A DNA stretch of 64,000 nucleotides from an uncultured Verrucomicrobiota bacterium (GTDB lineage Bacteria > Verrucomicrobiota > Kiritimatiellia > CAIQIC01 > Lenti-01). The position numbers were made by a program, and so were the translations under genes. Below are positions 3 to 34,624 of the stretch, piece by piece (within the stretch, counting starts at the first letter, position 1; every line of letters begins with the position of its first letter). The notes below the pieces were generated by a model. The model saw only the letters and a program-made list of their open reading frames with translations. It was not told the origin of the DNA and did not search any database. Location: contig CAZECJ010000002.1 of assembly GCA_964510645.1 (NCBI GenBank), positions 11,432-75,431 on the forward strand, in the 5' to 3' direction.

Positions 3-3000
3 GTGTGGTTCGACGTCGACCGCGACGGCATCCAGGATTCCGGCGAAACCAATTTCATCGCCAACGTCCCCGTCTCCCTGATGACGACCAACGGGGTGGC
101 GGTGACCTCGACCTGGACGTCGGCGGATGGGGTATATCTGTTCGCCAACGTCCTTCCGGGCACCTATTACGTCCGCTTCGATCTGACGAACGTCACGGCC
201 TATGTCACGCTGGCGCCGGCCAACCAGGGCGGCGACGGCGCCGTCGACAGCGACGTGATCGGCGGCGGCACGCGGAACTATGCCTGGACGACGAATTTCA
301 CGGTTTCCGGCGGCCAGACGAATCTGGATCTGGATCTGGGCCTCATGACGCTCAAGGCCACCCGCGCCGATCTGGCCGAAGTCTGGGGCGAGTGGAAGGA
401 CGGCGAAGGGCGCGTGGGGTGGCGCACGAGCGCGGAATGGAACACGGCGGGTTTCTTCGTGTATCGCGTCGATCCGGAAACCGGAGCCGAAACGCCGTTG
501 AACGAAATGCCGGTGCCTTCGGCCTTCGAGGCGGCCGGTGCGGTCTACGAGCTGGCGGATCCCGCCGCCCGCGCCGGCGGCGGCGGAACCTATCGGCTGG
601 AAGAACTGGAATTGTCGGGCGGCACGATGGATCTCGGAACGCACGCCGTGGCGTTTGCGGGCGAGCCGGCCGCGGCGAAAGCCGCGCGCGCCGAAATCCG
701 GACGGCGCGGGCGATCCGTTCGGCGAAGCCGAAAGCCGCGCCGAAGGCGGACGGACCGTCGTCCGTGCTGAAGGTCTTCGTGCGCCACGAAGGCCTCTAC
801 GGCGTCGCGCTGCAAGCCATCGCCGCCGGCATGGGCCGGACGCTCGAAGACGTGCAGGCGCTCGCGGCGGCTGAACGGTTCTCCCTCTACGCGCAAGGCA
901 GCCCGGTGCCGACGATCTACGACGAAGCGCGCGGCCGGCTGGTCTTCCGCGGGCAAGGCCTCCGCGGGCGGTATGCGCGCGACAACGCCTACCTGATCTC
1001 GGCAGGCGACGGCCGGACGATGCCGCGCCGCGAACCCGGCGCGACGGATGGCCAGACGGTTTTCCCCGCGACGGTGCGCTTCGAGGAAGATCGCAACGTG
1101 TTCGACAGTCCCACGGTGCCGCTCGAAGACTACTTCTACTGGGATTACGTCATCGCCGGAACCAACGCGGCCTCCCTGAAGGATTTCCCGATCGACCTGA
1201 CGGGCGCGGCCGGCGACGTGTCGCTGAAGGTGCGCGTGATGGGCTGGTCCAGCGCGACGAACGATCCGGACCACCGGGCGGAATTCCGGTTCAACGGAAC
1301 GACGGTGGGGGCGGCGATCTTCGACGGCCAGGAATCGGTCGAGGCCGAAGTGTCCGTGCCCGCCTCGCTGGTCTCCAACGGCATGAACGTGCTTTCGGTG
1401 AAGGGTGTGCTGCAGGCGGGCGTCAAGTCCAGCGCCTTCGTGGTGGACTGGATCGAAGCGACGTTCGAACGCGAGCTGGTGCCGTTGTCCGGCACGGCGC
1501 ATGTCGCCGCCAACGGCGCCTCGGCGGTTTCGGCCGCGGCCTTTGCGGCGCCGTTGGCGCTCGCCTTGGACGCGGACGGGAACCCGACGTGGATCGCCGA
1601 CGAAAACGGCGGATTGCCGGGCAAGGCGTGGTCGGTTTCTCCGGAAAACATGCGCTATGCGGTCGTTGAGGCCGAAAGCCTGCCGCTGCTCGATCCCGAG
1701 CCGGCGGCGGCCGACGCCTGGTTCCTGTCGGAGACGAACCGCATCGATTATCTGGTGGTCGTCTCGCGCGCGCTCGCCGCCGCGGCGCAGGAGCTGGCGG
1801 ATTACCGCGCAGGCCAAGGCCTGCGCGTCGGCGTGGCGGTCTTCGAAGAGATCTGCGACCTGATGGCGGACGGCGTGCGCACGCCGGAAGCGATTCCGGA
1901 ACTGCTGGCCTATGCCGAGGGCATTTGGGCGGAGGCTCCGTGGATGGTCGTGCTGGCGGGCAACGGGAGCTACGACTACTTCGGCACGCTGGGCAGCGAG
2001 GTCAACCATCTCCCGCCGATGCTGGTCCAGACGGCCGAAGGACTGTTCGCCGCCGACGAGCTGCTCGCCGACAGCGGCGGCGACGAGTTGCCGGACGTGG
2101 CTATCGGGCGGTTGCCTGCGCTCACGGCGGAGGAATTGGCGGCGATGATCGCGAAGGTCAAGGCCTACGAGGCCGGCTTCGGGCAGAACTGGCAGGGGCA
2201 GATCGTGTTTGCGTCCGACACGAACGATGCCGCCGCCGGCCGTTTCGCGGCGGCCAACGAAAATCTGGCCTCGCTGGTCGGCGGCAAGCACGCGGCGGAT
2301 GTCGTCGATCTGAACGTGACGGCCCTCACCCCGGCCCGCAACAAGCTGATGTCGTATTTCCAGAGCGGCGCGGGAATGATCCACTACACCGGCCATGGCG
2401 GCGTCGCCAACTGGAGCGCGAAGGGCCTGTTGAAGGCGACGGACGTGGCGGCGATGAACAACCCGAACCAGCCCCCGGTGGTGGCGGCGTTGAGCTGCCT
2501 GGTGGGCCGCTACGAAGCGCCCGGCGTGAACAGCCTCGGCGAATTGCTGATGCGCAAGGCCGACGGCGGCGCGGCGGCGGTTTGGGGCCCGTCGGGCCTG
2601 TCGCGCAACGATCCGGCCGTCGAGCTCGGCGCGGCCTTCTATCGCGCCGTCCTGCAGGACGGCGCCGGCACGCTGGGACGGGCCGTGTTGCGGGCGCGCC
2701 GCAGCCTGGCGGCGGACTTGTTCAAGCAGGACACCTTCGGCGTCTACAATCTGCTGGGCGATCCCGCCCTGCGCATCGCGAACAACGCGGGCGGGCATCC
2801 CGCCGACGAAACCTTCGCCCAGTGGCGCTGGCAGCGGTTTGCGCCGGCCGAATTGGCCGATGCGGAAACCAGCGGCGCGACGGACGCCAACTTCAGGGAC
2901 TATGCGCTGGACGGCGGCTATGACATCGTGGCCGAGCTGCCTGAATTCGGCTATCCGTCGCCCGTCGTGGACGAAACGAGGCCTCGGGCCGACGACGGGG

Positions 3001-3221
3001 ATGGCTTCGTCATGCGCTGGAAGCGCCGCATCCGCCGCGCCGACGTCGAATATCGCTTGTTCCTGTCGCACGATCTGGAAACCTGGTCGGACGATCCGGC
3101 TCAGCTGGAAGAAGTCGGCACGGAGCCCGATCTCGACGGCGTGATGGAAACCGTGCGCACCCGCATCAAGCGCACGGACGCGGAACGCACCTATCTGGGC
3201 ATCAAGGCCAAGAAGAAGTAA
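3..3221 (+). CDS. Peptidase C25 (gingipain-like) family surface protein with SdrD B-like repeat; 5'-partial
   Basis: The frame is open to the window start. The N-end carries 'DRDGIQDSGETN' (SdrD B-like/Cna-type repeat). The C-half has C25 hallmarks: 'NRIDYLVVVSRAL', a His-Gly motif 'IHYTGHGG' and a Cys motif 'VVAALSCLVG'. Long colinear identical stretches are shared with the downstream paralog ('GFFVYRVDPETGAET', 'WFLSETNRIDYLV', 'APWMVVLAGNG', 'YNLLGDPALRIA'). Confidence 0.75.
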   Translation: MWFDVDRDGIQDSGETNFIANVPVSLMTTNGVAVTSTWTSADGVYLFANVLPGTYYVRFDLTNVTAYVTLAPANQGGDGAVDSDVIGGGTRNYAWTTNFTVSGGQTNLDLDLGLMTLKATRADLAEVWGEWKDGEGRVGWRTSAEWNTAGFFVYRVDPETGAETPLNEMPVPSAFEAAGAVYELADPAARAGGGGTYRLEELELSGGTMDLGTHAVAFAGEPAAAKAARAEIRTARAIRSAKPKAAPKADGPSSVLKVFVRHEGLYGVALQAIAAGMGRTLEDVQALAAAERFSLYAQGSPVPTIYDEARGRLVFRGQGLRGRYARDNAYLISAGDGRTMPRREPGATDGQTVFPATVRFEEDRNVFDSPTVPLEDYFYWDYVIAGTNAASLKDFPIDLTGAAGDVSLKVRVMGWSSATNDPDHRAEFRFNGTTVGAAIFDGQESVEAEVSVPASLVSNGMNVLSVKGVLQAGVKSSAFVVDWIEATFERELVPLSGTAHVAANGASAVSAAAFAAPLALALDADGNPTWIADENGGLPGKAWSVSPENMRYAVVEAESLPLLDPEPAAADAWFLSETNRIDYLVVVSRALAAAAQELADYRAGQGLRVGVAVFEEICDLMADGVRTPEAIPELLAYAEGIWAEAPWMVVLAGNGSYDYFGTLGSEVNHLPPMLVQTAEGLFAADELLADSGGDELPDVAIGRLPALTAEELAAMIAKVKAYEAGFGQNWQGQIVFASDTNDAAAGRFAAANENLASLVGGKHAADVVDLNVTALTPARNKLMSYFQSGAGMIHYTGHGGVANWSAKGLLKATDVAAMNNPNQPPVVAALSCLVGRYEAPGVNSLGELLMRKADGGAAAVWGPSGLSRNDPAVELGAAFYRAVLQDGAGTLGRAVLRARRSLAADLFKQDTFGVYNLLGDPALRIANNAGGHPADETFAQWRWQRFAPAELADAETSGATDANFRDYALDGGYDIVAELPEFGYPSPVVDETRPRADDGDGFVMRWKRRIRRADVEYRLFLSHDLETWSDDPAQLEEVGTEPDLDGVMETVRTRIKRTDAERTYLGIKAKKK

Positions 3222-3250
3222 CGATTCGCCGGCGCTCCCGGCGCTCACCG

Positions 3251-3269
3251 TTTTCCACACTGTGGAAAA
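3251..3269. repeat. Single copy of the 19-bp palindrome family: TTTTCCACaCTGTGGAAAA
   Basis: A perfect 9+1+9 palindrome read directly from the sequence. It lies 30 nt after the stop of CDS 3..3221 and 383 nt upstream of ATG 3652. Confidence 0.85.
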
Positions 3270-3651
3270 TCAGTCCCCGCTCCCGTAACGGCGTTGCCTA
3301 AGGCGGGCCGGCAGCCTCGCCCCATGAAGCGGCAAGCATAGCGGCGTCGTGCCGACGCTTTCCAAAAACATCTATCGCTTGGCTGGCGTCAGATGCGTTT
3401 GCCCGGGGTGGGTTACCCCCCATAGTCCCGGTCCGGGGGGGGGAGTAGGGTTTGTTGGGTGCAGTGGGTATCCATTCTCCCCGCCCCCTCTGGCAAACCG
3501 GGGGGAGAAAATGCGGACCTGCTTGGATCTTTGAATCGCAACCATAAAGCACGAGAAACAAATGAAGCCGGATCGATCCATCGAAGTAGACGGAAAATCG
3601 CCGCCGGCATGTTCATGGAGGTCGGCTTGGAATGGGGCGAATCGGATTTCC

Positions 3652-6600
3652 ATGGGACTGCTCTGGGCGGTCGCGATGGTTTTGTCGCTTCAAGAAGCCC
3701 CCGCGCAGATGGTCGATCTGGGTTCCGCCTCCGGGTTTGCCGTTCTGGCCGGCGCCGGGATCACCATCGGCGCTTCGGGCACGACCACGATCGCCGGGGA
3801 TATCGGGTCGTATCCCACCGCGACCATCACGGGCACGGAAAATCTGGACTTGGACGGGACCAACCACGGGGGCGATGCGGTCACGCAGGCCGCCAAAATC
3901 GATCTGGCCACGGCGTATGCCGATGCCGCCGGCCGCACCCCCACCACGACGTATCCGCCGATCTATGATCTGGGAGGACAGACCCTCGGCCCCGGCGTCT
4001 ACGACGATCCCAGTTCATTCGGGATCACCGGCATCCTGACGCTGGATGCCGGCGGCGACCCGGATGCGGTTTGGATCTTCCAGGCCGGGTCCACGCTCAT
4101 CACGGCCTCGGGCAGCCAGGTGGTGTTGATCAATGGCGCGCAGGCCGGCCGCGTTTTCTGGCAAGTGGGCACGTCGGCGACGCTCGGAACGGGCACGGAC
4201 TTCGCGGGAACTCTCTTGGCCTCCGCATCCATCACGCTGGCGGCCGGCGCATCGGTGGGGGGAAGCCTGTTGGCTCTGAATGGCGCCGTCACGTTGGACG
4301 ACAATGCGATCGCGCGGAGCGCCGACCTCGCCGTTCTCGGCGACCGGGCGTGGTTCGACGCCGACCGCGACGGCATTCAGGATGCAGGCGAGACCAACGG
4401 GGTTACCGGCGTGCCCGTGGCGCTGCTGGACGTCGATTCGAACGTGGTGGCTGCGACCACTACCGATGCCGGAGGCCACTACCTGTTCGCGAACCTGGCC
4501 GCGGGCGGCTATCGGGTGCGGTTCGACCTCTCCACGGTCACCACGAATGTAATCATCAGTTCCGCCGACCAGGGCGGCGACGACGCTCTCGACAGCGATG
4601 CGACCACCGGCGATACGGGCGGCTACGTCGGCACGGAACTCGTCTCCATCGGCGGGAGCGAGACCAACCGGAGCGTCGACCTGGGCCTGCGGGTGCGCGG
4701 CACGACCCGCGCGTCCCTCGCCGAAGTCTGGGGCGAGTGGAGCGGCGGCGCAGGGCGCGTCGTTTGGCAGACGAGTTCGGAGTGGGGAACGGCGGGATTC
4801 TTCGTCTACCGCGTCGATCCGGAGACGGGCGCGGAAACGCGCCTGAACGACGTGCTGGTGGCGTCGGCGTTCCGCGAGGCCGGCTCGGTCTACGAGCTGG
4901 AAGATCCGGCACCCCGGGAAGGCGGTGCGGCGACCTATCGGATCGAGGAAATCGAGCTGTCGGGCGGTTCGCTGGATCTGGGTACTCACGAGGTGGCATT
5001 TGCCGCGGCGCGGCCCCGGGCCAAAGCCGCGAAGGCGACGCTGTCGAAGGCGCTGCTGGCGCTGCCCAAGCTGGCGGGGCCGTCGCCGATCCTGAAAGTG
5101 CTCGTGCGCGACGAAGGCCTCTACGGCGTGGGGCTGCAAGCCATCGCCGAGGGGATGGGAACCGCGCTGGCGGACGCGCAGGCCCTGGCGGAGACGGAGT
5201 CACTGGAAATTTCAGAGCGGGGTACGCCGGTGCCGGTGCTCTATGACGCGGCGCGCGCGCGGCTCGTGTTCCATGGCGAGCCGACGGACGACTGGTACAC
5301 GCGTGACAACGCCTATTTGATTTCGGAAGGCGCGGGGCTCCCGATGCCGCGGCGCGAGCCCGGCGCGTCCTCCGGCGAATCGGTCTTTCCGGCGCAGGTG
5401 CGATTCGAACTGGATCGGTATCCGTTCGACATCGCCACGACCCGGCCCGAGGACTTCTACTACTGGGACTATGTCATCAGCGGTGCGACCAACGCGACTT
5501 CGCTGCGGGACTTTCCGCTGGATCTTGCGGGCGCGGCCGTCGCCGTCGCGCTGAAGGTGCGCCTGATGGGCTGGTCGAGCACGACCAACAACCCCGACCA
5601 CTTGGCGGAATTCCGTTTCAATGGAACCCGCGTGGGTTTGGTCTCCTTCGACGGGCAGGATTCCATCGAGACCGAGGTGTCCGTGCCCGTCGCGCTGGTT
5701 TCGAATGGCGCGAACGTGCTTTCCGTGAAGGGCGTGCTGCAGCCCGGACGCAGCCACAGCTATTTCGTGGTGGACTGGATCGAGGCGTCGTTCGCGCGCG
5801 CGCTGGTGCCGCGGGCCGGCACGGCGCACTTCGCGGCCGGCGGCGCGGCGGCGGTTTCGGCGGCGGCGTTTGCCGCTCCGTTGGCGCTGGCCCTGGACGG
5901 GGAGGGGCATCCGACGTGGATCGCAGATGAAAACGGCGAGCTGCCGGCCAAGTCGTGGACGGCGGCGGAAGCCGACAGGCGCTTCGCGGTCGTCGAGTCG
6001 GCTTCCGTTCCGATGCTGGTACCGGAATCGGTGAACGCCGATCCGTGGTTCCTGTCGGAAACGAACCGCATCGATTACCTTGTGCTCACGTCGCGCGCGC
6101 TGGAACCGGCGGCGCAGGAGCTGGCGGACTATCGCTCCGCTCAAGGGTTGCGCGTCGGCGTGGCGACCTTCGAAGACGTCTGCGACGGGATGGCCGGCGG
6201 CCTGCGCACGCCGGAAGCGATTCCGGAGCTGCTGGCCTATGCGGCCGCGACCTGGGCGGAAGCCCCGTGGATGGTGGTGCTGGCGGGCAACGGGCACTAC
6301 GACTATCTGGGCGCGCTGAGCAACGAGGTGAACCATGTGCCCCCGCTGATGCTCCAGACCCTCGCGGGGCTCTTCGCGGCGGACGGCTTGCTGGCGGACG
6401 CCACGGGAGACGGGGTGCCGGACGTCGCGATCGGCCGCCTGCCGGCGCGGACCGCGGCGGAGCTGACCGCGATGATCGCGAAGATTAGGGCCTACGAGGC
6501 TGCCTTTGGTTCGGCTTGGCAGAACGAGTTCGTCCTGGCGGCCGACGTCGCCGATGCGGCGGGCGACTTCTCGACGGCGAACGCGATCTTCGCCGCATTG

Positions 6601-7521
6601 GCGACGGCTCCGCATGCGGTGGTCGAGCGCATCGACCTGGACACGCAGGCGATCGCCTCGGCGCGCACGAACCTGATGAACCGGTTCAAGGCCGGAGCGG
6701 GCTTCATCCATTACACGGGCCATGGCGGAGTCAACAGCCTCAGCGCGCTCGGACTGCTGAAAGCGGCGGACGTCCAAGCGATGACCAACGTCCGCGCGCC
6801 GGTGGTGGTGACGCTGAGTTGCCTCGTCGGCCGCTTCGAAGCTCCGGCCGTGGACAGCCTGGGCGAATTGCTGATGCGCCAAACGCACGGCGGGGCGACG
6901 GCGGTCTGGAGTCCTTCGGGAATGTCCCTCAATCCGCCGGCGACGGAACTGGCCGAGGCGTTCTATCGCGCCGTCCTGCAGGAAGGTTCCGGTACGCTGG
7001 GGCTGGCGATCCTGCGGGCGCGCCGCGCGAGGCAGGCCAACTTCTTCACCCAGGACACCCTCGCCATCTACAACCTGCTGGGCGATCCGGCGCTGCGCAT
7101 CGCCGGCAACGTGGGCGGGCATTCCTCCGATGAAAGCTTCGCGCAATGGCGCTGGCAGCGGTTTTCACCGGAAGAACTGGCCGACCCTCAAACCAGCGGC
7201 GCGACGACGAACATCTTCTTCGACTACGCGATGGACGGTGGATACGAGGTGCTGGCCGAACGGCCCGAATTCGGCTTCGAGTTGCCGGAAGACGACGGGC
7301 CCGGATTCATCTTGCGCTGGAAGCGCCGGATCCTGCGCGCGGACGTCGAGTACCGCTTGTATGTTTCAGATGATCTGATACATTGGGAAGCAGAACCCGC
7401 CGACTTGGAGACCGTTGGCGTGGAGCCGGATGTGGATGGCGTGATGGAGACCGTTCGCACGCGGGTGGACCGCCCGCTGGCCGCGCGCGTTTTCGTGGTC
7501 GTCCGGGCCCGGAAAAAGTAG
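3652..7521 (+). CDS. Surface protein: DUF3494/ice-binding-like beta-helix + SdrD B-like repeat + peptidase C25 domain
   Basis: A signal-like 'MGLLWAVAMVLSLQEAPAQ' starts at ATG 3652; the ORF-track start 3562 is less likely. 'LGSASGFAVLAGAGITIGASGTTTIAGDIGS...FAGTLLASASITLAAGASVGGSLLALNGAVTL' is the DUF3494/ice-binding-like pattern. It is followed by 'DRDGIQDAGETN' and C25 motifs 'IHYTGHGG' and 'VVVTLSCLVG'. Confidence 0.75.
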   Translation: MGLLWAVAMVLSLQEAPAQMVDLGSASGFAVLAGAGITIGASGTTTIAGDIGSYPTATITGTENLDLDGTNHGGDAVTQAAKIDLATAYADAAGRTPTTTYPPIYDLGGQTLGPGVYDDPSSFGITGILTLDAGGDPDAVWIFQAGSTLITASGSQVVLINGAQAGRVFWQVGTSATLGTGTDFAGTLLASASITLAAGASVGGSLLALNGAVTLDDNAIARSADLAVLGDRAWFDADRDGIQDAGETNGVTGVPVALLDVDSNVVAATTTDAGGHYLFANLAAGGYRVRFDLSTVTTNVIISSADQGGDDALDSDATTGDTGGYVGTELVSIGGSETNRSVDLGLRVRGTTRASLAEVWGEWSGGAGRVVWQTSSEWGTAGFFVYRVDPETGAETRLNDVLVASAFREAGSVYELEDPAPREGGAATYRIEEIELSGGSLDLGTHEVAFAAARPRAKAAKATLSKALLALPKLAGPSPILKVLVRDEGLYGVGLQAIAEGMGTALADAQALAETESLEISERGTPVPVLYDAARARLVFHGEPTDDWYTRDNAYLISEGAGLPMPRREPGASSGESVFPAQVRFELDRYPFDIATTRPEDFYYWDYVISGATNATSLRDFPLDLAGAAVAVALKVRLMGWSSTTNNPDHLAEFRFNGTRVGLVSFDGQDSIETEVSVPVALVSNGANVLSVKGVLQPGRSHSYFVVDWIEASFARALVPRAGTAHFAAGGAAAVSAAAFAAPLALALDGEGHPTWIADENGELPAKSWTAAEADRRFAVVESASVPMLVPESVNADPWFLSETNRIDYLVLTSRALEPAAQELADYRSAQGLRVGVATFEDVCDGMAGGLRTPEAIPELLAYAAATWAEAPWMVVLAGNGHYDYLGALSNEVNHVPPLMLQTLAGLFAADGLLADATGDGVPDVAIGRLPARTAAELTAMIAKIRAYEAAFGSAWQNEFVLAADVADAAGDFSTANAIFAALATAPHAVVERIDLDTQAIASARTNLMNRFKAGAGFIHYTGHGGVNSLSALGLLKAADVQAMTNVRAPVVVTLSCLVGRFEAPAVDSLGELLMRQTHGGATAVWSPSGMSLNPPATELAEAFYRAVLQEGSGTLGLAILRARRARQANFFTQDTLAIYNLLGDPALRIAGNVGGHSSDESFAQWRWQRFSPEELADPQTSGATTNIFFDYAMDGGYEVLAERPEFGFELPEDDGPGFILRWKRRILRADVEYRLYVSDDLIHWEAEPADLETVGVEPDVDGVMETVRTRVDRPLAARVFVVVRARKK

Positions 7522-7578: not shown

Positions 7579-7651
7579 GTTTTCCATACCATGGAAAACG
7601 ATTCCGGTTTTTTTCCGCCCTGTGGAAAAAGATTTTCCACGCCGTGGAAAA
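7579..7651. repeat. Array of three copies of the TTTTCCAC-N3-GTGGAAAA palindrome (candidate operator array)
   Basis: The copies are GTTTTCCATaccATGGAAAAC (7579..7599), TTTTTCCGCCCTGTGGAAAAA (7610..7630) and TTTTCCACgccGTGGAAAA (7633..7651). Centre-to-centre spacings are 31 and 22 bp. The array ends 57 nt upstream of the PqqD ATG. Confidence 0.85.
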
Positions 7652-7707: not shown

Positions 7708-7977
7708 ATGAAGGGCCGGGTGGTGCTGCGCCGAATCGGCGAGGACCGCCTGCTGGTGCCGGTATCGGGCGGCGCCGCGCGCGAGAACTGCGTGTTTCCC
7801 CTCAACGAAACGGGCGAATTCATCTGGAATTATCTGACGCAGGGCCGGACGCTGGACGAAACGGCGGCGGCGGTGGTCGCCGCGTTCGCCGTGGCTTTGG
7901 AAGAAGCGCTGCGCGATTGCCGCGGGTTCGCCGAAAAACTGGTGTCGCATGGGTTGCTCGAGGAGGGGCCGCCGTGA
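7708..7977 (+). CDS. PqqD-family peptide chaperone (RiPP recognition element)
   Basis: The 89-aa product 'MKGRVVLRRIGEDRLLVPVSG...FPLNETGEFIWNYLTQGRTLDETAAAVVAAF...FAEKLVSHGLL' has the typical PqqD layout. Its stop overlaps the next start (GTGA at 7974). ATG 7708 was chosen because the longer ORF-track start 7591 lies inside the palindrome array. Confidence 0.75.
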   Translation: MKGRVVLRRIGEDRLLVPVSGGAARENCVFPLNETGEFIWNYLTQGRTLDETAAAVVAAFAVALEEALRDCRGFAEKLVSHGLLEEGPP

Positions 7978-9077
7978 GCGGTTCGCCCGCCGAGATGGAG
8001 AGGACCGCCGCCCGCTGGACGGTCGATTTCCGCGCCCGAGCCGCGCAGGCGCGCCGGCCGATTTCCGCCACGCTGGAACTGACGCGGCGCTGCAACCTGC
8101 ATTGCGCCCACTGCTACCTCGGCGATCAGGCCGAACAGCACCGGCGGCGCGACCGCGAACTCGGTGCGGAGGCCGTGAAGGCGGCGCTCTCCGAATGGGC
8201 CGAGGCCGGCTGCCTGTACGTGCTGATCACGGGCGGCGAACCGCTGTTGCGCCCCGACTTCGCCGATGTCTACCGCCATGCGCGCGGGCTGGGGCTGGTG
8301 GTGACGGTCTTTTCCAATGGGACGCTCGTGGACGATGAAACCCTCGCGCTGTTTCGCGAACTGCCGCCGCGCCGGGTGGAGATCAGCCTCTACGGCGCGA
8401 CGGCGGAAGTCCACGACGCCGCCACCGGCGTGCCGGGTTCGCATGCGCGCGCCTGGGCCGGCATCCGCCGCCTGCACGCGGCGGGCGTGCGCGTCGGACT
8501 CAAGACCCTGCTGATGACGACCAATCTCCGCGAGTTCGCGGCCATGGAACGCCAAGCCCGGGATCTGGGCGTCCGCTTCCGCCACGATGCGGCGATCACC
8601 CCCTGCCTGCACGGTGGATCGCGCGCGCCGCTGGCGCTGCGCGTGTCGCCGGAAGAAGCGGTGCGGGCGGACATGGCGACGGCCGAGCGCCGTTCGACGT
8701 GGCGCGAGTCGATCGAGCAAGCCGCGGCGCGGCCCGAGGGGGATCGCCTCTATGGCTGTTCGGCCGGGCAGACCTTTTTCCACTGCGATCCGTTTGGCGG
8801 CCTGTCGCCGTGCCTCATGGCGGAGAGCGATCGCTGCGTTCCCGGCGGCCGCGCGTTCCGGGAAATCTGGAGCCGCGAGTTGGCGGCCATCCGCGGCCGG
8901 AAACGCACGCGGGCCGGCGGCAGCTTTTCCGGCGTTTTGCGCGGCGCGTGCGCGCATTGTCCGGCCTTCAACCGGGTGGAAACCGGTGACGAGGAAATGG
9001 AATCCGCTTACATGAAACAAACGACCCTGTTGCGTTACCAAGCGGCGATGACCCCCCCTGACGGAGAATGCCTATGA
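7974..9077 (+). CDS. Radical SAM peptide maturase (PqqE-like) with Cys-rich SPASM/twitch-like C-terminus
   Basis: 'LELTRRCNLHCAHCY' carries the CxxxCxxC motif and 'ITGGEPLLRPD' the GGE motif. The C-terminal Cys cluster is 'CSAGQTFFHCDPFGGLSPC...CAHCPAF'. GTG 7974 overlaps the PqqD stop; ATG 7995 is an alternative start. Confidence 0.85.
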   Translation: MSGSPAEMERTAARWTVDFRARAAQARRPISATLELTRRCNLHCAHCYLGDQAEQHRRRDRELGAEAVKAALSEWAEAGCLYVLITGGEPLLRPDFADVYRHARGLGLVVTVFSNGTLVDDETLALFRELPPRRVEISLYGATAEVHDAATGVPGSHARAWAGIRRLHAAGVRVGLKTLLMTTNLREFAAMERQARDLGVRFRHDAAITPCLHGGSRAPLALRVSPEEAVRADMATAERRSTWRESIEQAAARPEGDRLYGCSAGQTFFHCDPFGGLSPCLMAESDRCVPGGRAFREIWSRELAAIRGRKRTRAGGSFSGVLRGACAHCPAFNRVETGDEEMESAYMKQTTLLRYQAAMTPPDGECL

Positions 9078-9256
9078 ATCCCCAACCCGAACGTCAACCC
9101 TCCCCGAACGAAGACCGGCCCGTCCGCCGCCCGTACGAGAAGCCCGCGATCCAGCGGGTGGACCTGGCGCTGGCGGAAACCTTGGGCAGCGGCTGCAAAC
9201 TGGACGGCGAATGCAACATGCCGCCCATCAACATCCGGGACGAGGTAGGCTCCTGA
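9074..9256 (+). CDS. Candidate precursor peptide (60 aa), PqqA-like leader, two Cys, C-terminal Ser
   Basis: Its ATG overlaps the rSAM stop (ATGA); ATG 9068 is an alternative start. Third-position GC is high, like the neighbouring genes. The sequence is MNPQPERQPSPNEDRPVRRPYEKPAIQRVDLALAETLGSGCKLDGECNMPPINIRDEVGS. Confidence 0.5.
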   Translation: MNPQPERQPSPNEDRPVRRPYEKPAIQRVDLALAETLGSGCKLDGECNMPPINIRDEVGS

Positions 9257-10170
9257 GGTCGTCCGTCCATCTGGACCTCGGTCCGCTGCGCATCCAGCTG
9301 CGGACGGATGGAACGGGGCCGGTGCGCTATTCCGCGCCGGCCTATGCGGGTTTTTTCTCGCCGGCTGCGCCGCGTCCCGGCGCCGATCCGCTGGCGGCGC
9401 TGTCCGTGGACGTCGCTTTCGGAAAATCGTCCGTGCCGGCCCGCCCGCCGTTTTGGCAGATCGGTCCGAGCTGGGCGGTTTGGGAAGAGGGGGCCGATCT
9501 GCTTTGCCTCGCCGGGTTCCATGCGCCGGACTCTGCGTTTTTCGGTTGCCGGGTGGCGCGCGACTTGTCGCGCGCGGAGCTCGCGGTGGATCCGCAATTG
9601 CCCGGTTCAGTTCCCGGCCAGATGGAAGCGCCGTTGCGCTATCCGCTGGACCAGGTGGTGTCCTGGGGCATGCTGTCGCGCATCGGCGGAGCCCTGCTGC
9701 ATGCGGCGGTGGCGGTGAAAGACGGCGCCGGGTACGTGTTCGCCGGCCGCAGCGGCGCGGGCAAATCCACGCTGTCGGGATTGTGCCATGCGGAAGGCTG
9801 GCGGATCTTGAACGACGACCGCGCGCTGGTGTTTCGTCGCGGCGGCGCGTGGCGCGTGGCCGGCACGCCGTGGCATGGGTCGGGCCGCTTCGCCGAAGCG
9901 GCGGACATGCCGCTGGGCGGAATCTATTTATTGCAGCAAGCGTCCGGGAACCGATTGGAGCTGGTATCGGGTTCGCAGGCGCGGTTGGCCTTGCTGGACG
10001 TGGCGGCGGTGCCGTGGTTCGAGGATTCCTGGGCACAGGGAATCCTAGATGGGTTGGATCGGCTGGTGGGGGATGTCGAAACCCGCCGGTTCCATTTCAC
10101 GAAAACGTCCGCGGCGGTACGGGCCTTGACGATTCGTCAAGACGCCCTGCGGGCGGAAGCGTGTGCATGA
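9211..10170 (+). CDS. HPr kinase-related (HprK-like) P-loop kinase
   Basis: 'LHAAVAVKDGAGYVFAGRSGAGKSTLSGLCHAEGWRILNDDRALV' matches the HPr kinase C-terminal fold pattern (H..v...G.g....G.SG.GKS......G..l..DD). The start is uncertain: ATG 9211 overlaps the peptide ORF by 46 nt, and GTG 9322 is an alternative. Confidence 0.7.
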   Translation: MQHAAHQHPGRGRLLRSSVHLDLGPLRIQLRTDGTGPVRYSAPAYAGFFSPAAPRPGADPLAALSVDVAFGKSSVPARPPFWQIGPSWAVWEEGADLLCLAGFHAPDSAFFGCRVARDLSRAELAVDPQLPGSVPGQMEAPLRYPLDQVVSWGMLSRIGGALLHAAVAVKDGAGYVFAGRSGAGKSTLSGLCHAEGWRILNDDRALVFRRGGAWRVAGTPWHGSGRFAEAADMPLGGIYLLQQASGNRLELVSGSQARLALLDVAAVPWFEDSWAQGILDGLDRLVGDVETRRFHFTKTSAAVRALTIRQDALRAEACA

Positions 10171-10589
10171 GGCGATTGACGCAACTTCCAGATTGCGTGT
10201 CGGATAGGACGCAAGGCATAGCGGGCCAACCCGGCCCAGCGGGCGAACCGGCTGTTCAGACGGTGGACGCGTCCGTCGCGGCGCACGCTTTCGGCCACAC
10301 CGAGGACGTCTTGGGCCGGAATCCAGTCGCCCCCGGTCACGGCGGCATCGCCGATCGTGTAAACCCGCTTTGTTCGTTTTTCGTTAAAAACGCATCGGTG
10401 GACTGTTATTCTTCCATTAATCTTATATAGTATAACGCTACCGCAAAATATCGCGCTGGAGGCCAACGGCTGGATGAAGATGCTCTCTCCGTCGCGGATG
10501 GTTGGAGTCATGCTCGGCCCGAAGGCCTGGAATGAAATGGGCGTGTGTTGTCGGAGCAGCGAGGTGATGATGTCCTGAATCTCGGGCAT
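10137..10589 (-). CDS. S24/S26-family serine peptidase (signal-peptidase/LexA-like fold), 150 aa
   Basis: This is the C-terminal 150 codons of minus ORF 10137..12503, starting at ATG 10589. It carries 'FGPSMTPTIRDGESIFIQPL...VILYKINGRITVHR', a Ser/Lys dyad pattern. The gene is visibly AT-richer than its surroundings. Its 3' end overlaps the HprK-like gene by 34 nt (convergent). Confidence 0.65.
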   Translation of the reverse strand: MPEIQDIITSLLRQHTPISFQAFGPSMTPTIRDGESIFIQPLASSAIFCGSVILYKINGRITVHRCVFNEKRTKRVYTIGDAAVTGGDWIPAQDVLGVAESVRRDGRVHRLNSRFARWAGLARYALRPIRHAIWKLRQSPHAHASARRAS

Positions 10590-10607
10590 GACGATGACGG
10601 GTTCCAG

Positions 10608-12521
10608 ATGAAAAAGGTAGTACAAGCCATGAACAACACAAGCATCGTTTTTCGGGCGGGTCGTTTGGCTCTCGCGGCGTTGGCGAGTTGTCTGTTGTCC
10701 TTGCCCGCGCAGGCCGCCAAACCCACGGGCGAGGCCGTCGTGGCCGCCCTGACCGGCCGGGCCCAGGCGCGCGTGTTTACCGCGCCCATCCACGAAGGGC
10801 GAACGGAAATCAAAGATTTGTTCGAAGGCGCTTCCGTCGGCGAGAACGTCCGCGTAACGACCGGAAAGGACGGGCGCCTGTGCCTGGTGTGTTCGCCGGG
10901 AGCCATCCTGTGCGTCGCGCCGAATACCGAATTCATCATCCAGCAGTTGCGCCACACGGCGGATGGTTTGCCGAAAAGCGAAGAAGACCTGATCCGCCGC
11001 ATCCACGTCCAGCTGCTCGGGGGCCGCCTCCGCGTGCAAGCGGGGACGCCCATGCCGACGCTGGACATCCAGATCGAGACGCCGGCCGGAACGGTCGCGG
11101 CCCAAGGCGGCTCGTTCGTGGTGGCGCAGGGCGGCCAAGGCCGCTGGAACGTCTTGAGCGAAGCCTATGAATTGGCGGTCACGCCCCGCAACGGGACCCG
11201 CGAACAACTCAAGGCGGGCGAGGCCGCCTGGATGGCCGCCGATGGAGAAGACCGGAGCGAATTCCAACCCGAAAGCGCCGCAGAAAACGCCGAGCTCTAC
11301 CAGTTCGAGCTCTGCAATGCCTTTTTCGCGGATTTGGAGCCTTTCATCCACCACGAGCGGCCGTTCGACCGGGAGGGGCTCGGAGATTATATCGGAACGA
11401 CCGCGCCGTTCTTCGATCTGGATTCCGGCGCGCTGGTGACGGATGCCAGTCCCACGATCCGGCCCTCGGTGTCCTCGGTCCGGCCTTCCGCCATGCCTCG
11501 GCCCGGAGAAGGGGCGCCCGGCGGACGCTGGGACGAGATCCGCATCTGGAAGTGGTTCGACGACGTCGGCACCGTGAAGGGCGTGAATTATATTCCCCGC
11601 ACCGCCGTCAATTCGGTCGAGATGTGGATGGCGGACACCTTCGATCCCGACACGATCGACGAGGAACTGGGCTGGGCCCACGACATCGGCTATACCAGCA
11701 TTCGCGTCCAGCTCCAGTTCGCGGTTTGGCAGGCCGATCCCGACGGATTCCTCGCTCGCGTGGACGACCTGTTCGACATCGCCGCGAAGCACGGCTTGCG
11801 CGTGGTGCCGGTGCTGTTCGACGATCTGAATCTGGCGGGCGAGCCGCCGCAGGTCGGGAAGCAGCCCGAGCCGGTTCCCGGCGAGCACAATGCCCGCTGG
11901 GTGCCCAGCCCCGGCGCCGACGCGGTGAAGGATCGCCGCCAGTGGCCCGCGCTGGAAAAATACGTGAAGGACGTGTTGGGCCAATTCAAGCGCGACCCGC
12001 GCGTCCTGTATTGGGACCTCTACAACACCGCCGGCAACGGCGGCTTGGGAGAGGACACGCTGCCGCTGCTGGACCAGACCTTCAACTGGGCGCGGGCGGT
12101 CGAGGCGTCGCAGCCGCTGGCAGTGCCTGCGTGGCGGGAATTCGGCAGCGCGATGGCCGCGCGCAAGCTCGAGCGGTCGGATCTGATCACATTCCAGAGC
12201 TTCGACAGCGCCGAGAGCATCGAGGCGCGCCTCCAGCTTTTGCGGCGCTACCAGCGCCCGATCATCTGCTCCGACTGGCTGATGCGCCAAGTGGGCAACG
12301 ACTTCAAGAAAGTGCTCCCGTTGTTTTCCGTCTACCGCGTGGGCTGGTTCAACCAAGGGCTCGTCAGCGGCAAAACCCACCGGCCCATCCAGGAGGCTCG
12401 CTATCGGGCGGAGAATGAGCCCGACGTCTGGCAGCAAGACGTGCTGCACGAGGATGGAACTCCATATGATCGGAAAGAAGTGGAGCTGATCCAAGGCTTC
12501 CACTTTCTCGAAGCTCCTTGA
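10608..12521 (+). CDS. Secreted FecR-domain + glycoside-hydrolase-like (TIM-barrel, GH5/clan GH-A-like) protein
   Basis: A signal peptide 'AALASCLLSLPAQA' is present. The FecR-like segment is 'GRAQARVFTAPIHEGRTEIKDLFEGASVGENVRVTTGKDGRLCLVCSPGAILCVAPNTEF'. The C-half, 'VKGVNYIPRTAVNSVEMW...GYTSIRVQLQF...HGLRVVPVLFDD...VLYWDLYNTAG', resembles cellulase/xylanase-type barrels. ATG 10629 is an alternative start. Confidence 0.55.
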   Translation: MKKVVQAMNNTSIVFRAGRLALAALASCLLSLPAQAAKPTGEAVVAALTGRAQARVFTAPIHEGRTEIKDLFEGASVGENVRVTTGKDGRLCLVCSPGAILCVAPNTEFIIQQLRHTADGLPKSEEDLIRRIHVQLLGGRLRVQAGTPMPTLDIQIETPAGTVAAQGGSFVVAQGGQGRWNVLSEAYELAVTPRNGTREQLKAGEAAWMAADGEDRSEFQPESAAENAELYQFELCNAFFADLEPFIHHERPFDREGLGDYIGTTAPFFDLDSGALVTDASPTIRPSVSSVRPSAMPRPGEGAPGGRWDEIRIWKWFDDVGTVKGVNYIPRTAVNSVEMWMADTFDPDTIDEELGWAHDIGYTSIRVQLQFAVWQADPDGFLARVDDLFDIAAKHGLRVVPVLFDDLNLAGEPPQVGKQPEPVPGEHNARWVPSPGADAVKDRRQWPALEKYVKDVLGQFKRDPRVLYWDLYNTAGNGGLGEDTLPLLDQTFNWARAVEASQPLAVPAWREFGSAMAARKLERSDLITFQSFDSAESIEARLQLLRRYQRPIICSDWLMRQVGNDFKKVLPLFSVYRVGWFNQGLVSGKTHRPIQEARYRAENEPDVWQQDVLHEDGTPYDRKEVELIQGFHFLEAP

Positions 12522-13798
12522 TGAAGCACGCCGTCGCCATTCTAGCCTGCCTGGCCGGTGCCGCAGTCGCGGTGCCTTCCGCCGGCTGGGCTGCGGACGA
12601 CGGCTATGCCGCCGGCTTCTTCACGCGCGGGGTCGATGCGGCGTCCTACATCGACCAGGGCGGGGCGGTCATCGATCCGTTCTACGTGCCCGCCAAGACG
12701 GGGGCGCTGCTGCCGCGCGTGAGCCTGGCGATGTCGCACGAAGACAACGTGTTTCTCGATCCGACCAATGAAACTGCCGGCACCTCGATCCAGCTGGTCC
12801 CGGGTCTGCTGGCCATCTGGGGACGCCCGGCGGGGAACCATGTCTACGCCGACTACGGCCTGATCCTTCCGGTCTACGAGAGCGAAGAGGAATTGAGCGA
12901 CCGCCCCAGCCACCTGCTGCGGCTGGGAAGCGTCTATCGCACGGGGAAAAGCCAGATCCAGGGACAAGTGGGCTATCGCCAACTGGAAGACGTGGATACG
13001 GTGGTAGGGGCACGCGTGGCCAAGCGGGACGTCTTGGGCGATCTGGGCGTCGAGCACCGGATCTCGGGCAAGTCCAGCGCGGGGCTGCAAGGCCGCGTGG
13101 AAATGCACGAATTCGACGCGGAAAACTATCTCGACTACAACCGCTATTATGGGGCGGGACGCCTGTATCACCGCGTGTCGCCCAAGAGCCAGGCCTTCGT
13201 GCAGGGCGGCCTCGGCCGCGACGATCCCCGGGAAGACGGCCCGCGCGCCGCCACCGATTTCTACGACCTGTCGCTGGGCGTGCGCGGCAAGCAGTCGCCC
13301 AAGTTCAATACGGCCGGTCGGGTGGGCTACATGTGGCGCACCTACGACGACGAGTTCCGCAACGATTTCGCGCACTGGATCGCCTCGCTGAAGGCCGAAA
13401 GCGCGCCGTTTGGCTTTACCACCTTTTCGGGCGAGCTGTATGCGGATATCCGCCCGGCCATCGACGCGGACGCGACCGACGTGGTGGACCAAGGGGTCAC
13501 GCTTGGCGCGGCGCGGCGCCTGTTCTCCGAGCGCCTGCGCGGAAACGCCTCGGCCACCTTCGGCCAGATCGACTACTCCGGCGCCAGCGCCGCGGAGGGC
13601 GGAAGCCAGGACGGGCGGACCGACCGCTACTGGGGATTTTCCGTCGGCGTGGACTGGTGGAGCAAGGAGCGCTTCTCCGTCGGCTTGGCCTATTCCTACA
13701 TGCGCCGCGACGGCAACGTGGACGGCGATCCGGAAGCGCAGGATTCGACCTCGTATGAACAAGGACGCTGGAACCTGCGCGCCAGTTGGAATTATTGA
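12521..13798 (+). CDS. Outer-membrane beta-barrel protein of polysaccharide loci
   Basis: A signal peptide 'AILACLAGAAVAVPSAGWA' is present. The sequence alternates in an amphipathic pattern rich in G/Y/R/D. The C-terminus '...RWNLRASWNY' ends in an aromatic residue, typical of OMPs. The start overlaps the previous stop (TGATG). Confidence 0.6.
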   Translation: MKHAVAILACLAGAAVAVPSAGWAADDGYAAGFFTRGVDAASYIDQGGAVIDPFYVPAKTGALLPRVSLAMSHEDNVFLDPTNETAGTSIQLVPGLLAIWGRPAGNHVYADYGLILPVYESEEELSDRPSHLLRLGSVYRTGKSQIQGQVGYRQLEDVDTVVGARVAKRDVLGDLGVEHRISGKSSAGLQGRVEMHEFDAENYLDYNRYYGAGRLYHRVSPKSQAFVQGGLGRDDPREDGPRAATDFYDLSLGVRGKQSPKFNTAGRVGYMWRTYDDEFRNDFAHWIASLKAESAPFGFTTFSGELYADIRPAIDADATDVVDQGVTLGAARRLFSERLRGNASATFGQIDYSGASAAEGGSQDGRTDRYWGFSVGVDWWSKERFSVGLAYSYMRRDGNVDGDPEAQDSTSYEQGRWNLRASWNY

Positions 13799-13834
13799 GG
13801 TCCAACCCATTCCAGCATTCCCTTTCCGGGAAGC

Positions 13835-14785: not shown

Positions 14786-14819
14786 AAAGCGACAAATCGC
14801 AGGAAATTTGGCCGCAAGC

Positions 14820-19140: not shown

Positions 19141-19146
19141 GGCAAA

Positions 19147-19572: not shown

Positions 19573-19585
19573 TGCTTTCCTCCGC

Positions 19586-19697: not shown

Positions 19698-19701
19698 CCC
19701 A

Positions 19702-21881: not shown

Positions 21882-21891
21882 GTTCCCCGGC

Positions 21892-26720: not shown

Positions 26721-26721
26721 C

Positions 26722-27879: not shown

Positions 27880-27884
27880 GCGCC

Positions 27885-34621: not shown

Positions 34622-34624
34622 CCG

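What the first reader, a model, noticed from the sequence alone, without database searches (positions are those of the whole stretch)
7579..7651. Helically phased array of the 19-bp palindrome TTTTCCAC-N3-GTGGAAAA upstream of the PqqD operon
Seen: three copies have centres 31 and 22 bp apart, roughly 3 and 2 helical turns. The array ends 57 nt before the PqqD ATG.

The same motif occurs at only three other places in 64 kb, always in non-coding gaps upstream of genes: 3251, 42348 and 57407.

Inference: these are operator sites for a dimeric regulator binding cooperatively on one DNA face, defining a small regulon. The regulon would comprise the C25 protein, the RiPP/glycan operon, the nucleotidyltransferase and the secretin-like gene. 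A REP-like structural element is the alternative explanation.
Basis: partly seen in the sequence, partly recalled or inferred. Interest (0 to 1): 0.68.

Follow-up and report, generated by a model that had tools for sequence, protein, structure and literature searches.

The report
Interspersed palindromic repeat arrays in Kiritimatiellia
The three phased palindromes upstream of the PqqD operon are real, but they are one copy of a repeat array scattered through the genomes of a whole group of uncultured bacteria (Kiritimatiellia): it lies between genes of every orientation and even in frame inside genes, so it is not the switch of a small local gene set.

Summary
The 19-bp dyad TTTTCCAC-N3-GTGGAAAA gives 10 hits with up to 3 mismatches, against 0.06 expected, at four intergenic places in the window. 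Unit centres are 22 or 30-31 bp apart.

An exact-pattern scan of 185,579 species genomes returned 115 stretches, 85 of them from 29 Verrucomicrobiota/Kiritimatiellia MAGs. The same 22/31-bp register recurs there (78 and 75 spacings).

The arrays have these properties:
- They lie in tandem, convergent (Pfam-verified) and divergent gaps, in either polarity.
- Their neighbours are unrelated housekeeping genes.
- They occur in frame inside pyrC, tatD and a permease gene.
- They sit at orthologous places in genomes with only 55-60% protein identity, with varying unit numbers.
- In orthologous arrays, core positions are about 97% identical and linkers about 55%.
- More distant lineages carry a dialect, TTTTCCAA-N3-TTGGAAAA, in the same register.

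Best reading: an old, clade-wide, REP/BIME-like family of dyad arrays. It is kept at the nucleotide level by an unidentified sequence-specific reader, most likely a dimeric DNA-binding protein. It lacks the GTAG/CGTC tag of classical REPs, and no RAYT gene was seen. Its function is inferred, not shown.

The parts
7580..7598 (.). Array 2, distal unit, TTTTCCATACCATGGAAAA (2 mismatches, symmetric CCAT/ATGG)
7611..7629 (.). Array 2, middle unit, TTTTCCGCCCTGTGGAAAA, 31 bp from the first unit
7633..7651 (.). Array 2, perfect 'cap' unit, TTTTCCACGCCGTGGAAAA, 22 bp from the middle unit. It lies 56 nt before the PqqD ATG (7708). The array as a whole starts 58 nt after the stop of the C25 gene (7521). 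The array is orthologous to L046 5240-5311.
3251..3269 (.). Single perfect unit, TTTTCCACACTGTGGAAAA (a 9-1-9 palindrome). It lies 29 nt after the stop of the first C25 gene and about 290 nt before the next ATG.
42349..42419 (.). Array 3: units at 42349 and 42371, plus a variant unit at 42401-42419 (AATTACGTAGCATGGAAAA); spacing 22 and 30. It lies between the start of the NTP_transf_5 gene (minus strand, 42282) and tRNA-Arg (42543, plus strand), which is a divergent gap.
57407..57509 (.). Array 4: units at 57407, 57429, 57460 (variant TTTTACGT-N3-ACGTAATT) and 57491 (hybrid); spacing 22, 31, 31. It lies 55 nt after the stop of gene 57565..59007 (minus strand) and 64 nt before the GTG start of the secretin gene (57342, minus strand). 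The whole module is 76-88% identical to arrays of another MAG (L038, L043, L072, L128).
7708..41272 (+). Context only: a run of about 33 kb of same-strand genes downstream of array 2 (probable operon). It encodes PqqD, a radical SAM protein, FecR-like, porin, Poly_export/Wza, a GNVR tyrosine-kinase-like protein, Wzy_C, an ABC-2 exporter and many glycosyltransferases.

Best explanation
The array at 7580-7651 is one member of an old family of interspersed palindromic-unit arrays found across a clade of Kiritimatiellia. The family resembles the REP/BIME elements of E. coli.

Anatomy (shown):
- The unit is a 19-bp DNA dyad, TTTTCCA-Y-R-S-Y-R-TGGAAAA.
- Units are strung into polar arrays: a perfect 'cap' unit, a 3-nt linker, then CCAT...GTGG units separated by 12-nt linkers of the type ATCGCGAAAAGT.
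- Unit centres are therefore 22 or 31 bp apart, which is 2 or 3 helical turns.
- Arrays gain and lose units.
- They sit mainly in gaps between transcription units of any orientation and are sometimes tolerated in frame inside genes.

Mechanism (inferred): the core positions are kept at the nucleotide level because a trans-acting, sequence-specific reader recognises double-stranded DNA. Most likely this is an abundant symmetric dimer that binds successive dyads on one face of the helix. Its specificity has co-evolved with the sites, giving the CAC/GTG and CAA/TTG dialects.

Consequence for the finding: the array is not a gene-specific operator. Any effect on the PqqD/glycan operon would be a local by-product of a genome-wide system, for example a roadblock, a change in topology, or hairpins in read-through RNA.
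For: Genome-wide and clade-wide distribution:
- 85 of the 115 exact-match stretches come from 29 Verrucomicrobiota/Kiritimatiellia MAGs, and the scan was truncated.
- Hits in other phyla and in viral contigs are single sites.
- 80 loci from other bacteria (562 kb) have none.
- In loci fetched through GlyA, and so not selected on the motif, there are arrays in 5 of 9, about one per 16-20 kb as in the window.

Register and anatomy:
- The spacing histogram has 78 cases at 22 and 75 at 31 (30: 17; 32: 7).
- The polar module recurs in many genomes.
- The linker consensus is shared between genomes: Hamming distance 5.9 within a genome, 6.7 between genomes.

Reading at the level of double-stranded DNA:
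- Position 9 is R, position 10 is C or G only, and position 11 is Y.
- Positions 8/12 and 9/11 do not covary. The counts at 8/12 are CG 149, CA 70, TG 56 and TA 10, against about 18 TA expected.
- Polarity is unrelated to the direction of transcription, 18 versus 14.

Not a regulon:
- Convergent gaps were verified with Pfam.
- Arrays are spread over all gap types.
- 78 neighbouring genes face the arrays with their end and 58 with their start, and their functions are heterogeneous.

Maintenance:
- Arrays sit at orthologous gaps in genomes with 55-89% protein identity, with different unit numbers.
- The mazG 3' end carries an array 48-52 nt after the stop in three genomes although the downstream neighbour differs.
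- Core positions are 96.6% identical and other positions 55% in ten orthologous array pairs.
- pyrC carries the array in frame across the clade. The peptides FSTxWKK, FHxVEK and FPxxGK are the unit read in three frames. Protein length runs from 419 to 506 aa, and outgroups lack the insert.

Co-evolving reader: the dialect TTTTCCAA-N3-TTGGAAAA has the same 22/31 register in L231 and L232.
Against: - No reader protein was identified, and no DNA-binding gene is consistently next to the arrays.
- The conservation figures are partly circular, because most loci were selected for holding an exact unit. Only the GlyA- and PyrC-derived loci are free of that bias.
- In-frame copies inside genes, changes in unit number, a scar in L234, absence of the array in L149, and at least 13 of 95 clusters lying within about 150 nt of a contig end are also what a selfish mobile repeat would show.
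- Each unit can fold as an RNA hairpin of -8.8 kcal/mol, and whole arrays fold with z-scores of -2.8 to -6.
- Seven of the 10 arrays in the window and the GlyA-fetched loci begin 29-58 nt after a stop codon. An RNA-level or termination role is therefore not excluded.
Confidence: 0.5

Rival explanations
1. Selfish REP/REPIN- or RPE-like mobile repeat. The units are non-autonomous elements copied by a transposase-like enzyme (RAYT or another) that recognises the hairpin. Arrays persist because they are nearly neutral, and they serve no host function.
For: - In-frame copies inside pyrC, tatD and a permease gene.
- Unit number varies between orthologous sites.
- Deletion scar in L234 and no array at the orthologous gap in L149.
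- Assemblies break at arrays.
- Arrays occupy all gap types in both polarities.
- Lineage dialects parallel the co-evolution of REPs with RAYTs.
- The general properties of REPs match: high copy number, extragenic position, unidirectional and convergent gaps, occasional intragenic copies (PMC3733652).
Against: - The units have no GTAG or CGTC tag.
- No Y1 transposase appeared among the annotated neighbours.
- Linkers within a genome are almost as diverged as linkers between genomes (5.9 versus 6.7 of 12), so the copies are not recent.
- Core positions stay about 97% identical at orthologous sites whose flanks are saturated, including inside pyrC at 59% protein identity. That needs selection or continual conversion.
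- The loop positions are symmetric (R-S-Y) without covariation, which fits duplex reading better than a hairpin.
Confidence: 0.25
2. An RNA-level element. The units act in transcripts as 3' hairpins that stabilise mRNA or, as 22-bp pairs (a hairpin followed by the UUUU of the next unit), as weak bidirectional terminators.
For: - Seven of the 10 arrays in the window and the GlyA-fetched loci start 29-58 nt after a stop codon.
- The mazG array stays with the 3' end of mazG when the downstream gene changes.
- Arrays are enriched in convergent gaps.
- The terminator scan flags unit 7653-7631 followed by TTTTT.
- Predicted folds are -8.8 kcal/mol for one unit, with array z-scores down to -6.
Against: - Arrays also lie in divergent gaps: window array 3, L231, L232 and L123 upstream of pheS.
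- Arrays also lie inside pyrC in the middle of a pur/pyr operon.
- U.G rather than C.A at positions 8/12 shows no preference for the transcribed strand (18 versus 14).
- There are no compensatory changes.
- Single units have no U-tract.
- Strict 3-nt and 12-nt linkers and polar arrays are not needed for hairpins.
Confidence: 0.12
3. Arrays read by a known universal protein: DnaA-box clusters that titrate DnaA in the manner of datA, or sites for a ParB/Noc-like protein.
For: - The half-site TTTTCCACA equals the relaxed DnaA-box consensus TTWTNCACA, and TTTTCCAC differs by one base from the parS half-site TGTTCCAC. Both resemblances are recalled from memory and were not tested.
- Four of the five TTWTNCACA 9-mers in the window lie in the arrays.
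- Units with two weak halves are depleted.
Against: - Half-sites almost never occur singly (12 of 14 in dyads).
- Position 9 is A in only 44% of units and G in 44%.
- The CAA dialect departs from the conserved CAC of DnaA boxes.
- The 3-bp spacer is incompatible with parS geometry.
- On the order of a hundred or more arrays per genome (extrapolated from about one array per 16-20 kb) is far more than known datA or parS systems have.
- No dnaA gene was found in the loci, so the oriC boxes could not be compared.
Confidence: 0.07
4. One reading: cooperative operator sites of a dimeric regulator that controls a small regulon (the C25 protein, the RiPP/glycan operon, the nucleotidyltransferase and the secretin-like gene).
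For: - The site has dyad symmetry and helical phasing.
- All four window sites are upstream of some gene.
- The array upstream of PqqD is conserved in the syntenic locus L046.
Against: - Arrays occur in convergent gaps and inside genes.
- Neighbouring genes are heterogeneous housekeeping genes.
- Polarity relative to the genes is random.
- In L225-L227 the array follows mazG regardless of the downstream gene.
- A relative with 77% rSAM identity has the C25-PqqD junction without any array.
Confidence: 0.03

Closest known systems
REP / BIME elements of Enterobacteria and Pseudomonas (palindromic units in mosaic arrays)
   Same: - Short palindromic units in high copy number.
- Mostly extragenic, and frequent in unidirectional and convergent gaps.
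- Organised in arrays with linkers of fixed length.
- Unit number varies between strains and species.
- Occasional copies inside genes (PMC3733652; here).
   Different: - No GTAG or CGTC tag, and no RAYT gene seen.
- The unit is only 19 bp, A/T-ended, and an almost perfect DNA dyad with a constrained centre (R-S-Y).
- The register is strict, 22 or 31 bp.
- The core is identical across about 30 species-level genomes and is kept at orthologous sites down to 55-60% protein identity.
- Divergent gaps are not avoided.
Rickettsia palindromic elements (RPE), selfish DNA inserted in frame in genes (from memory)
   Same: Palindromic repeats tolerated in frame within conserved protein genes and retained in orthologues. 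Here these are pyrC, tatD and a permease gene.
   Different: RPEs are 100-150 bp single elements, not arrays of 19-bp units. Here most copies are intergenic and the nucleotide motif itself stays nearly perfect.
Phased operator arrays of oligomeric repressors (NrdR boxes 31-32 bp apart; ARG boxes 21 bp apart; from memory)
   Same: Palindromic boxes whose centres are 2 or 3 helical turns apart, which suggests cooperative binding on one face.
   Different: Those arrays sit only in promoters of a defined regulon and have 2 boxes. Here there are 1-8 units in any type of gap and inside genes, next to unrelated genes.
Uptake-sequence 'dialects' (Neisseria DUS) and REP-RAYT co-evolution (from memory)
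   Same: A genome-wide short motif whose sequence differs in a concerted way between related lineages, which implies a co-evolving reader.
   Different: Uptake sequences are not dyad arrays with a fixed register, and many of them lie in coding DNA.

Membership tests
   Arrays occur in Pfam-verified convergent gaps (L104, L057, L113, L121, L140). Convergent gaps carry arrays at 25% against 12-14% for the other types. In-frame copies lie inside pyrC, tatD and a permease gene.
   The 58 start-facing neighbours hit 70 Pfam families, none in more than 2 members. They include pheS, ribB, ddl, mtnA, acn, trpA and leuB.
   The unit is a 19-bp dyad, and spacings are 22 (78 cases) and 31 (75 cases).
REP / BIME | Short (20-40 bp) palindromic units in high copy number, mostly extragenic | tested here: met
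   The unit is 19 bp, about one array per 16-20 kb. There are 288 units in 95 clusters across 30 genomes (the window plus 29 MAGs).
REP / BIME | Located between unidirectional and convergent ORFs, downstream of coding regions | tested here: inconclusive
   There are 47 tandem, 14 convergent and 8 divergent cases. The median distance to a stop codon is 51 nt and to a start codon 73 nt. Divergent gaps are not avoided.
REP / BIME | GTAG or CGTC tetranucleotide tag at one end (PMC3733652) | tested here: not met
   The flank profile shows only A/T-rich neighbours, with no GTAG or CGTC.
REP / BIME | Cognate RAYT (Y1 HUH transposase) flanked by units | not tested
   None appeared among the Pfam-annotated neighbours or the called genes of L224-L234. 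Whole genomes could not be scanned with the tools left.
REP / BIME | Mosaic arrays with linkers of fixed length | tested here: met
   Linkers are 3 nt and 12 nt, with a polar cap-plus-repeat module and a linker consensus of the type ATCGCGAAAAGT.
Intrinsic terminator | G+C-rich hairpin directly followed by a U-tract, downstream of a gene | tested here: inconclusive
   One unit of a 22-bp pair is flagged by the scan, and a unit folds at -8.8 kcal/mol. Single units lack a U-tract, and arrays also occur in divergent gaps and inside pyrC.
DnaA-box cluster | 9-mers matching TTWTNCACA, singly or in direct arrays, at oriC, datA-like loci or DnaA-regulated promoters | tested here: inconclusive
   About half of the half-sites match the 9-mer. 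They occur almost only as head-to-head dyads, the CAA dialect breaks the CAC core, and oriC could not be examined.
Known RNA family (Rfam) | Match to a curated covariance model | tested here: not met
   Only tRNA-Arg was found, both at gathering score and at E-value up to 1. Nothing overlaps the arrays.

The most novel reading that the evidence does not exclude
The arrays are the chromosomal binding sites of an undescribed, abundant, clade-specific DNA-binding protein. This would be a new nucleoid-associated or boundary system that loads as phased dimers at the edges of transcription units. Its specificity would have co-evolved with roughly a hundred or more arrays per genome (extrapolated from array density; the CAC and CAA dialects), and selection for it would be strong enough to keep the motif intact even inside the pyrC reading frame.
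Probability: 0.3. Interest if true: 0.75.

Novelty: new variant of a known kind. Interest (0 to 1): 0.5.

Why it matters
For annotation, the result removes a false regulon. The C25, PqqD/glycan, nucleotidyltransferase and secretin genes share a genome-wide repeat, not a regulator.

For biology, it defines a repeat system in a poorly studied, uncultured clade, and I found no description of it (four full-text literature searches, Rfam). Its combination of features is unusual:
- a nearly perfect 19-bp dyad;
- a strict register of 2 or 3 helical turns;
- conservation of the sequence across many species-level genomes and of array positions at orthologous sites;
- lineage dialects;
- long-term persistence in frame inside a housekeeping enzyme.

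Together these point to a specific reader protein that can be found by DNA-affinity methods or by phylogenetic profiling. The system is also a natural case for asking whether REP-like repeats are selfish or serve the host. In practice the arrays break metagenome assemblies and merge ORFs in gene calling.

Tried and rejected
- **Fixed promoter architecture.** In the window all three arrays read 'distal unit, 31, 22, about 70 nt, start codon'. Across 86 loci the polarity relative to the downstream gene is random, so I dropped this.
- **Sigma-54 or ECF promoter inside or after the array.** By eye there is no TGGCAC-N5-TTGC or AAC/CGT pattern, and the sigma-70 scan found 0 sites in 1-10000.
- **Long 41-nt hairpin formed by a 22-bp pair.** The central triplets of the two units are often direct copies, not complements, so this was rejected.
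- **Hairpin covariation.** None was found at positions 8/12 or 9/11.
- **Genome-specific concerted evolution of linkers.** It is weak, 5.9 versus 6.7.
- **Phage or plasmid origin.** IMG/VR holds only 28 single sites.
- **Locating the source contig.** The exact look-up of the secretin protein failed. The metagenome scan with the radical SAM protein found no close relative that carries the motif.
- **dnaA in the fetched loci**, to compare the oriC boxes: none was found.
- **A DNA-binding gene or transposase next to the largest arrays.** The neighbours are pheS, purM-like, amylases, DsbD and MscS.
- **Literature.** Searches for the motif and for REPs in this clade found nothing specific.
- **First gene caller.** It mis-called the NTP_transf_5 strand and was replaced by a 3-periodic Markov model. 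Start codons remain approximate.

Full report
**1. The observation**

The region 7580-7651 holds three copies of a 19-bp dyad: TTTTCCATACCATGGAAAA, TTTTCCGCCCTGTGGAAAA and TTTTCCACGCCGTGGAAAA. Their centres are 31 and 22 bp apart.

A search for TTTTCCAC-N3-GTGGAAAA with up to 3 mismatches gives 10 hits in the window, against 0.06 expected from shuffles. The hits fall at four intergenic places:
- 3251, a single perfect unit;
- 7580, 7611 and 7633;
- 42349 and 42371;
- 57407, 57429 and 57491.

There is also a 3-mismatch hit inside a gene at 31837, which I regard as chance.

Reading the sequence adds two variant units in the same register: 42401-42419 (AATTACGTAGCATGGAAAA) and 57460-57478 (TTTTACGTTCTACGTAATT). 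Arrays 3 and 4 then have spacings of 22, 30 and of 22, 31, 31. Twelve of the 14 exact TTTTCCAC octamers in the window lie in these clusters, always as dyads.

- two C25 peptidases (3..3221 and 3562..7521);
- PqqD (7708..7977);
- an NTP_transf_5 protein (41224..42282, minus strand);
- a secretin-domain protein (56509..57342, minus strand).

Downstream of PqqD runs a stretch of about 33 kb of same-strand polysaccharide-type genes. tRNA-Arg lies at 42543.

**2. Distribution outside the window**

Of these, 85 come from 29 MAGs labelled Verrucomicrobiota, Kiritimatiellia or 'Lentisphaerae'. Many of those hold several copies 22 or 31 nt apart. The remaining stretches, from other phyla, almost all carry one isolated unit.

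IMG/VR gave 28 single sites and no array. GlyA homologues place the window in Kiritimatiellia, with 97% identity to the best hit.

Over 86 loci the spacing between neighbouring units is sharply bimodal: 22 nt in 78 cases and 31 nt in 75, with 17 at 30 and 7 at 32.

**3. Anatomy**

In 288 units the outer seven positions of each half are nearly invariant. The middle positions are constrained as follows:
- position 8 is C (77%) or T;
- position 9 is A or G;
- position 10 is only C or G;
- position 11 is T or C;
- position 12 is G (71%) or A.

This is a DNA-level dyad, TTTTCCAYRSYRTGGAAAA. The symmetric positions do not covary. At 8/12 the counts are CG 149, CA 70, TG 56 and TA 10, against about 18 TA expected, and positions 9/11 are independent.

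The arrays are polar modules that recur in many genomes. A perfect 'cap' unit comes first, then a 3-nt linker, then units of the form TTTTCCAT-NGY-GTGGAAAA separated by 12-nt linkers. Back-to-back modules give 22-30-31-22 patterns. The linker consensus is about ATCGCGAAAAGT and is shared between genomes. Linkers within a genome are hardly more alike than linkers between genomes: Hamming distance 5.9 versus 6.7 of 12.

**4. Relation to genes**

I called genes with a 3-periodic Markov model trained on the loci and checked key cases with Pfam.

The 95 clusters fall as follows:

| Context | Clusters |
|---|---|
| Tandem gaps | 47 |
| Convergent gaps | 14 |
| Divergent gaps | 8 |
| Inside called ORFs | 9 |
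| At contig ends | the rest |

Five convergent cases were examined with Pfam. In four of them both flanking genes are confirmed: arginase -> <- GH31 with 83 nt between the stops, adenosine deaminase -> <- ferredoxin, PALP -> <- BACON protein, and SdrD-like -> <- DUF456. In the fifth only one side is confirmed, <- OEP.

Per type of gap, arrays occupy 25% of convergent, 12-13% of tandem and 14% of divergent gaps. Seventy-eight neighbouring genes face an array with their end and 58 with their start.

The start-facing genes are unrelated housekeeping and other genes: pheS, ribB, ddl, mtnA, aconitase, trpA, leuB, dus, tatD and more.

Module polarity is unrelated to the direction of transcription: 18 in the same direction and 14 opposite. 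The regular layout seen in the window is therefore a coincidence.

In loci fetched through GlyA, which were not selected on the motif and which carry independent gene calls, arrays appear in 5 of 9 loci. One of them sits 48-52 nt after the mazG stop in three genomes, although the downstream gene differs: an ABC transporter (plus strand), a CAP protein (minus strand) or glyA (plus strand).

**5. Arrays inside genes**

Several of the 'intragenic' calls are real.
- A dihydroorotase (pyrC, in the middle of a pur/pyr operon) carries the array in frame at the same place in L045 (4 units), L130 (2 units) and L233 (2 units, at 59% protein identity).
- TatD (L087) and an ABC permease (L047) also carry in-frame pairs.

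Among 80 PyrC clusters of the clade the protein length runs from 419 to 506 aa. The insert reads FSTxWKK, FHxVEK and FPxxGK. These are the unit translated in its three frames, which follows because 22 and 31 are both 1 modulo 3. Outgroups from other phyla lack the insert. One lineage, L234, keeps only a scar, TTT-GTGGAGAAC.

The conservation is therefore at the nucleotide level, not the peptide level.

**6. Conservation and dialects**

The syntenic locus L046 is about 65% identical in nucleotides and 60% in protein. It has the same three-unit module, in the same orientation, between its C25 gene and PqqD, while the rest of the gap is unalignable.

Many other orthologous gaps carry arrays in two or three genomes at 55-89% protein identity, with different numbers of units. 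In ten orthologous array pairs the 14 core positions are 96.6% identical and all other positions 55%. This figure is partly circular for the motif-selected loci. It is not circular for L225/L226 or for L130/L233.

A relative with 77% radical SAM identity but lower G+C (L149) has the C25-PqqD junction without any array.

More distant Kiritimatiellia carry TTTTCCAA-N3-TTGGAAAA in the same 22/31 register with 12-nt linkers. These are L231 (GlyA 81% identical) and L232 (73%). A concerted, symmetric change of all copies implies a trans-acting reader whose specificity changed, or copying from a changed master.

**7. Mechanism**

*Shown:* a genome-wide, clade-wide family of polar dyad arrays that is independent of gene orientation, tolerated in frame, variable in unit number, and conserved at the nucleotide level.

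*Inferred:* recognition of duplex DNA by a symmetric dimer that binds on one helical face. The reasons are:
- half-sites lie 10-12 bp apart;
- unit centres are 2.1 and 2.95 turns apart;
- the centre is constrained as R-S-Y without covariation;
- each unit keeps at least one perfect half;
- there is no strand preference relative to transcription.

The function is open. Candidates are architecture or topology at the edges of transcription units, or a roadblock.

*Main rival:* a selfish REP/RPE-like repeat. In-frame insertions, copy-number changes, assembly breaks (at least 13 of 95 clusters lie within about 150 nt of a contig end) and dialects all fit it. Old, diverged linkers and strong retention of the core at orthologous sites argue against ongoing copying.

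*RNA hairpin or terminator roles* are possible side effects: a unit folds at -8.8 kcal/mol and the terminator scan flags one unit of a 22-bp pair. They do not explain divergent-gap and intragenic copies, or the strict linkers.

*DnaA box and parS.* The resemblances of the half-site to these are from memory and untested. The dyad-only occurrence and the CAA dialect speak against them.

**8. Comparison with known systems**

The closest known kind is REP/BIME. Short palindromic units, extragenic mosaic arrays with fixed linkers and occasional intragenic copies are all shared (PMC3733652). Membership in the described REP superfamilies fails on the GTAG/CGTC tag, and a RAYT gene was not found, though whole genomes were not scanned.

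Rfam has no matching family. Four full-text literature searches found no description of the motif.

I rate it a new variant of a known kind, of moderate interest. The regulon claim is wrong, but the element itself has unusual features that point to an undiscovered reader protein.

Noticed in passing
window 57516-57543: A perfect A/T-rich hairpin, AATATACTTGTTT-gt-AAACAAGTATATT, lies between array 4 and the stop of gene 57565..59007 (minus strand). It is unlike the surrounding 66% G+C DNA and may be a terminator or another repeat.
   Followed up: no
window 3400-3515; L104 ~2316-2345; L113 ~730-784; L226 8228-8262; L225 4050-4090: C-run/G-run hairpins occur in the 3222-3561 gap of the window. 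A conserved element, CCCCCC(AT)GCGGGGAATCGCGGCT, sits between a stop codon and the dyad arrays in MAGs of different species. It may be a second repeat family or the true terminator.
   Followed up: partly
L082 1997-2113; L139 ~4560-4685; L061 ~2911-2935: An element of about 120 nt (...CGCTATAGAGCTCGCGTTCGC...GGCTCGGCACTCGSCTA) abuts dyad arrays in three different MAGs. It is a further conserved non-coding repeat of unknown nature.
   Followed up: no
window 42401-42419, 57460-57478, 57491-57509; L043 ~1254-1272: Variant half-sites TTTTACGT/ACGTAA replace TTTTCCAC in some units, in the correct register. They appear both as a symmetric variant and as hybrids, in the window and in the CALMNW MAG. 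They may be a second specificity or decaying units.
   Followed up: partly
window 3..7521: Two tandem C25-peptidase paralogues (about 48-49% identical to the single gene of L046) are each followed by the motif, a single unit after the first and a 3-unit array after the second. This is consistent with duplication of the gene together with its downstream element.
   Followed up: partly
window 45169-46854: RpiB and serine hydroxymethyltransferase are fused in one 561-aa protein. The fusion is conserved through the clade, and more distant Kiritimatiellia add an N-terminal LMWPc phosphatase domain (707-756 aa).
   Followed up: partly
window 47662-52089: A minus-strand cluster holds two NERD-domain paralogues, a protein with five TRAM domains and a BURPS668_1122-type toxin deaminase. 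The NERD-NERD-TRAM part is syntenic in L225-L227.
   Followed up: no
L231 12532-12717: The public gene call of a 61-aa ORF lies entirely over a dyad array. The conserved unit positions create no stop codon in any frame, so arrays generate spurious ORFs and can fuse neighbouring ORFs in automatic annotation.
   Followed up: partly
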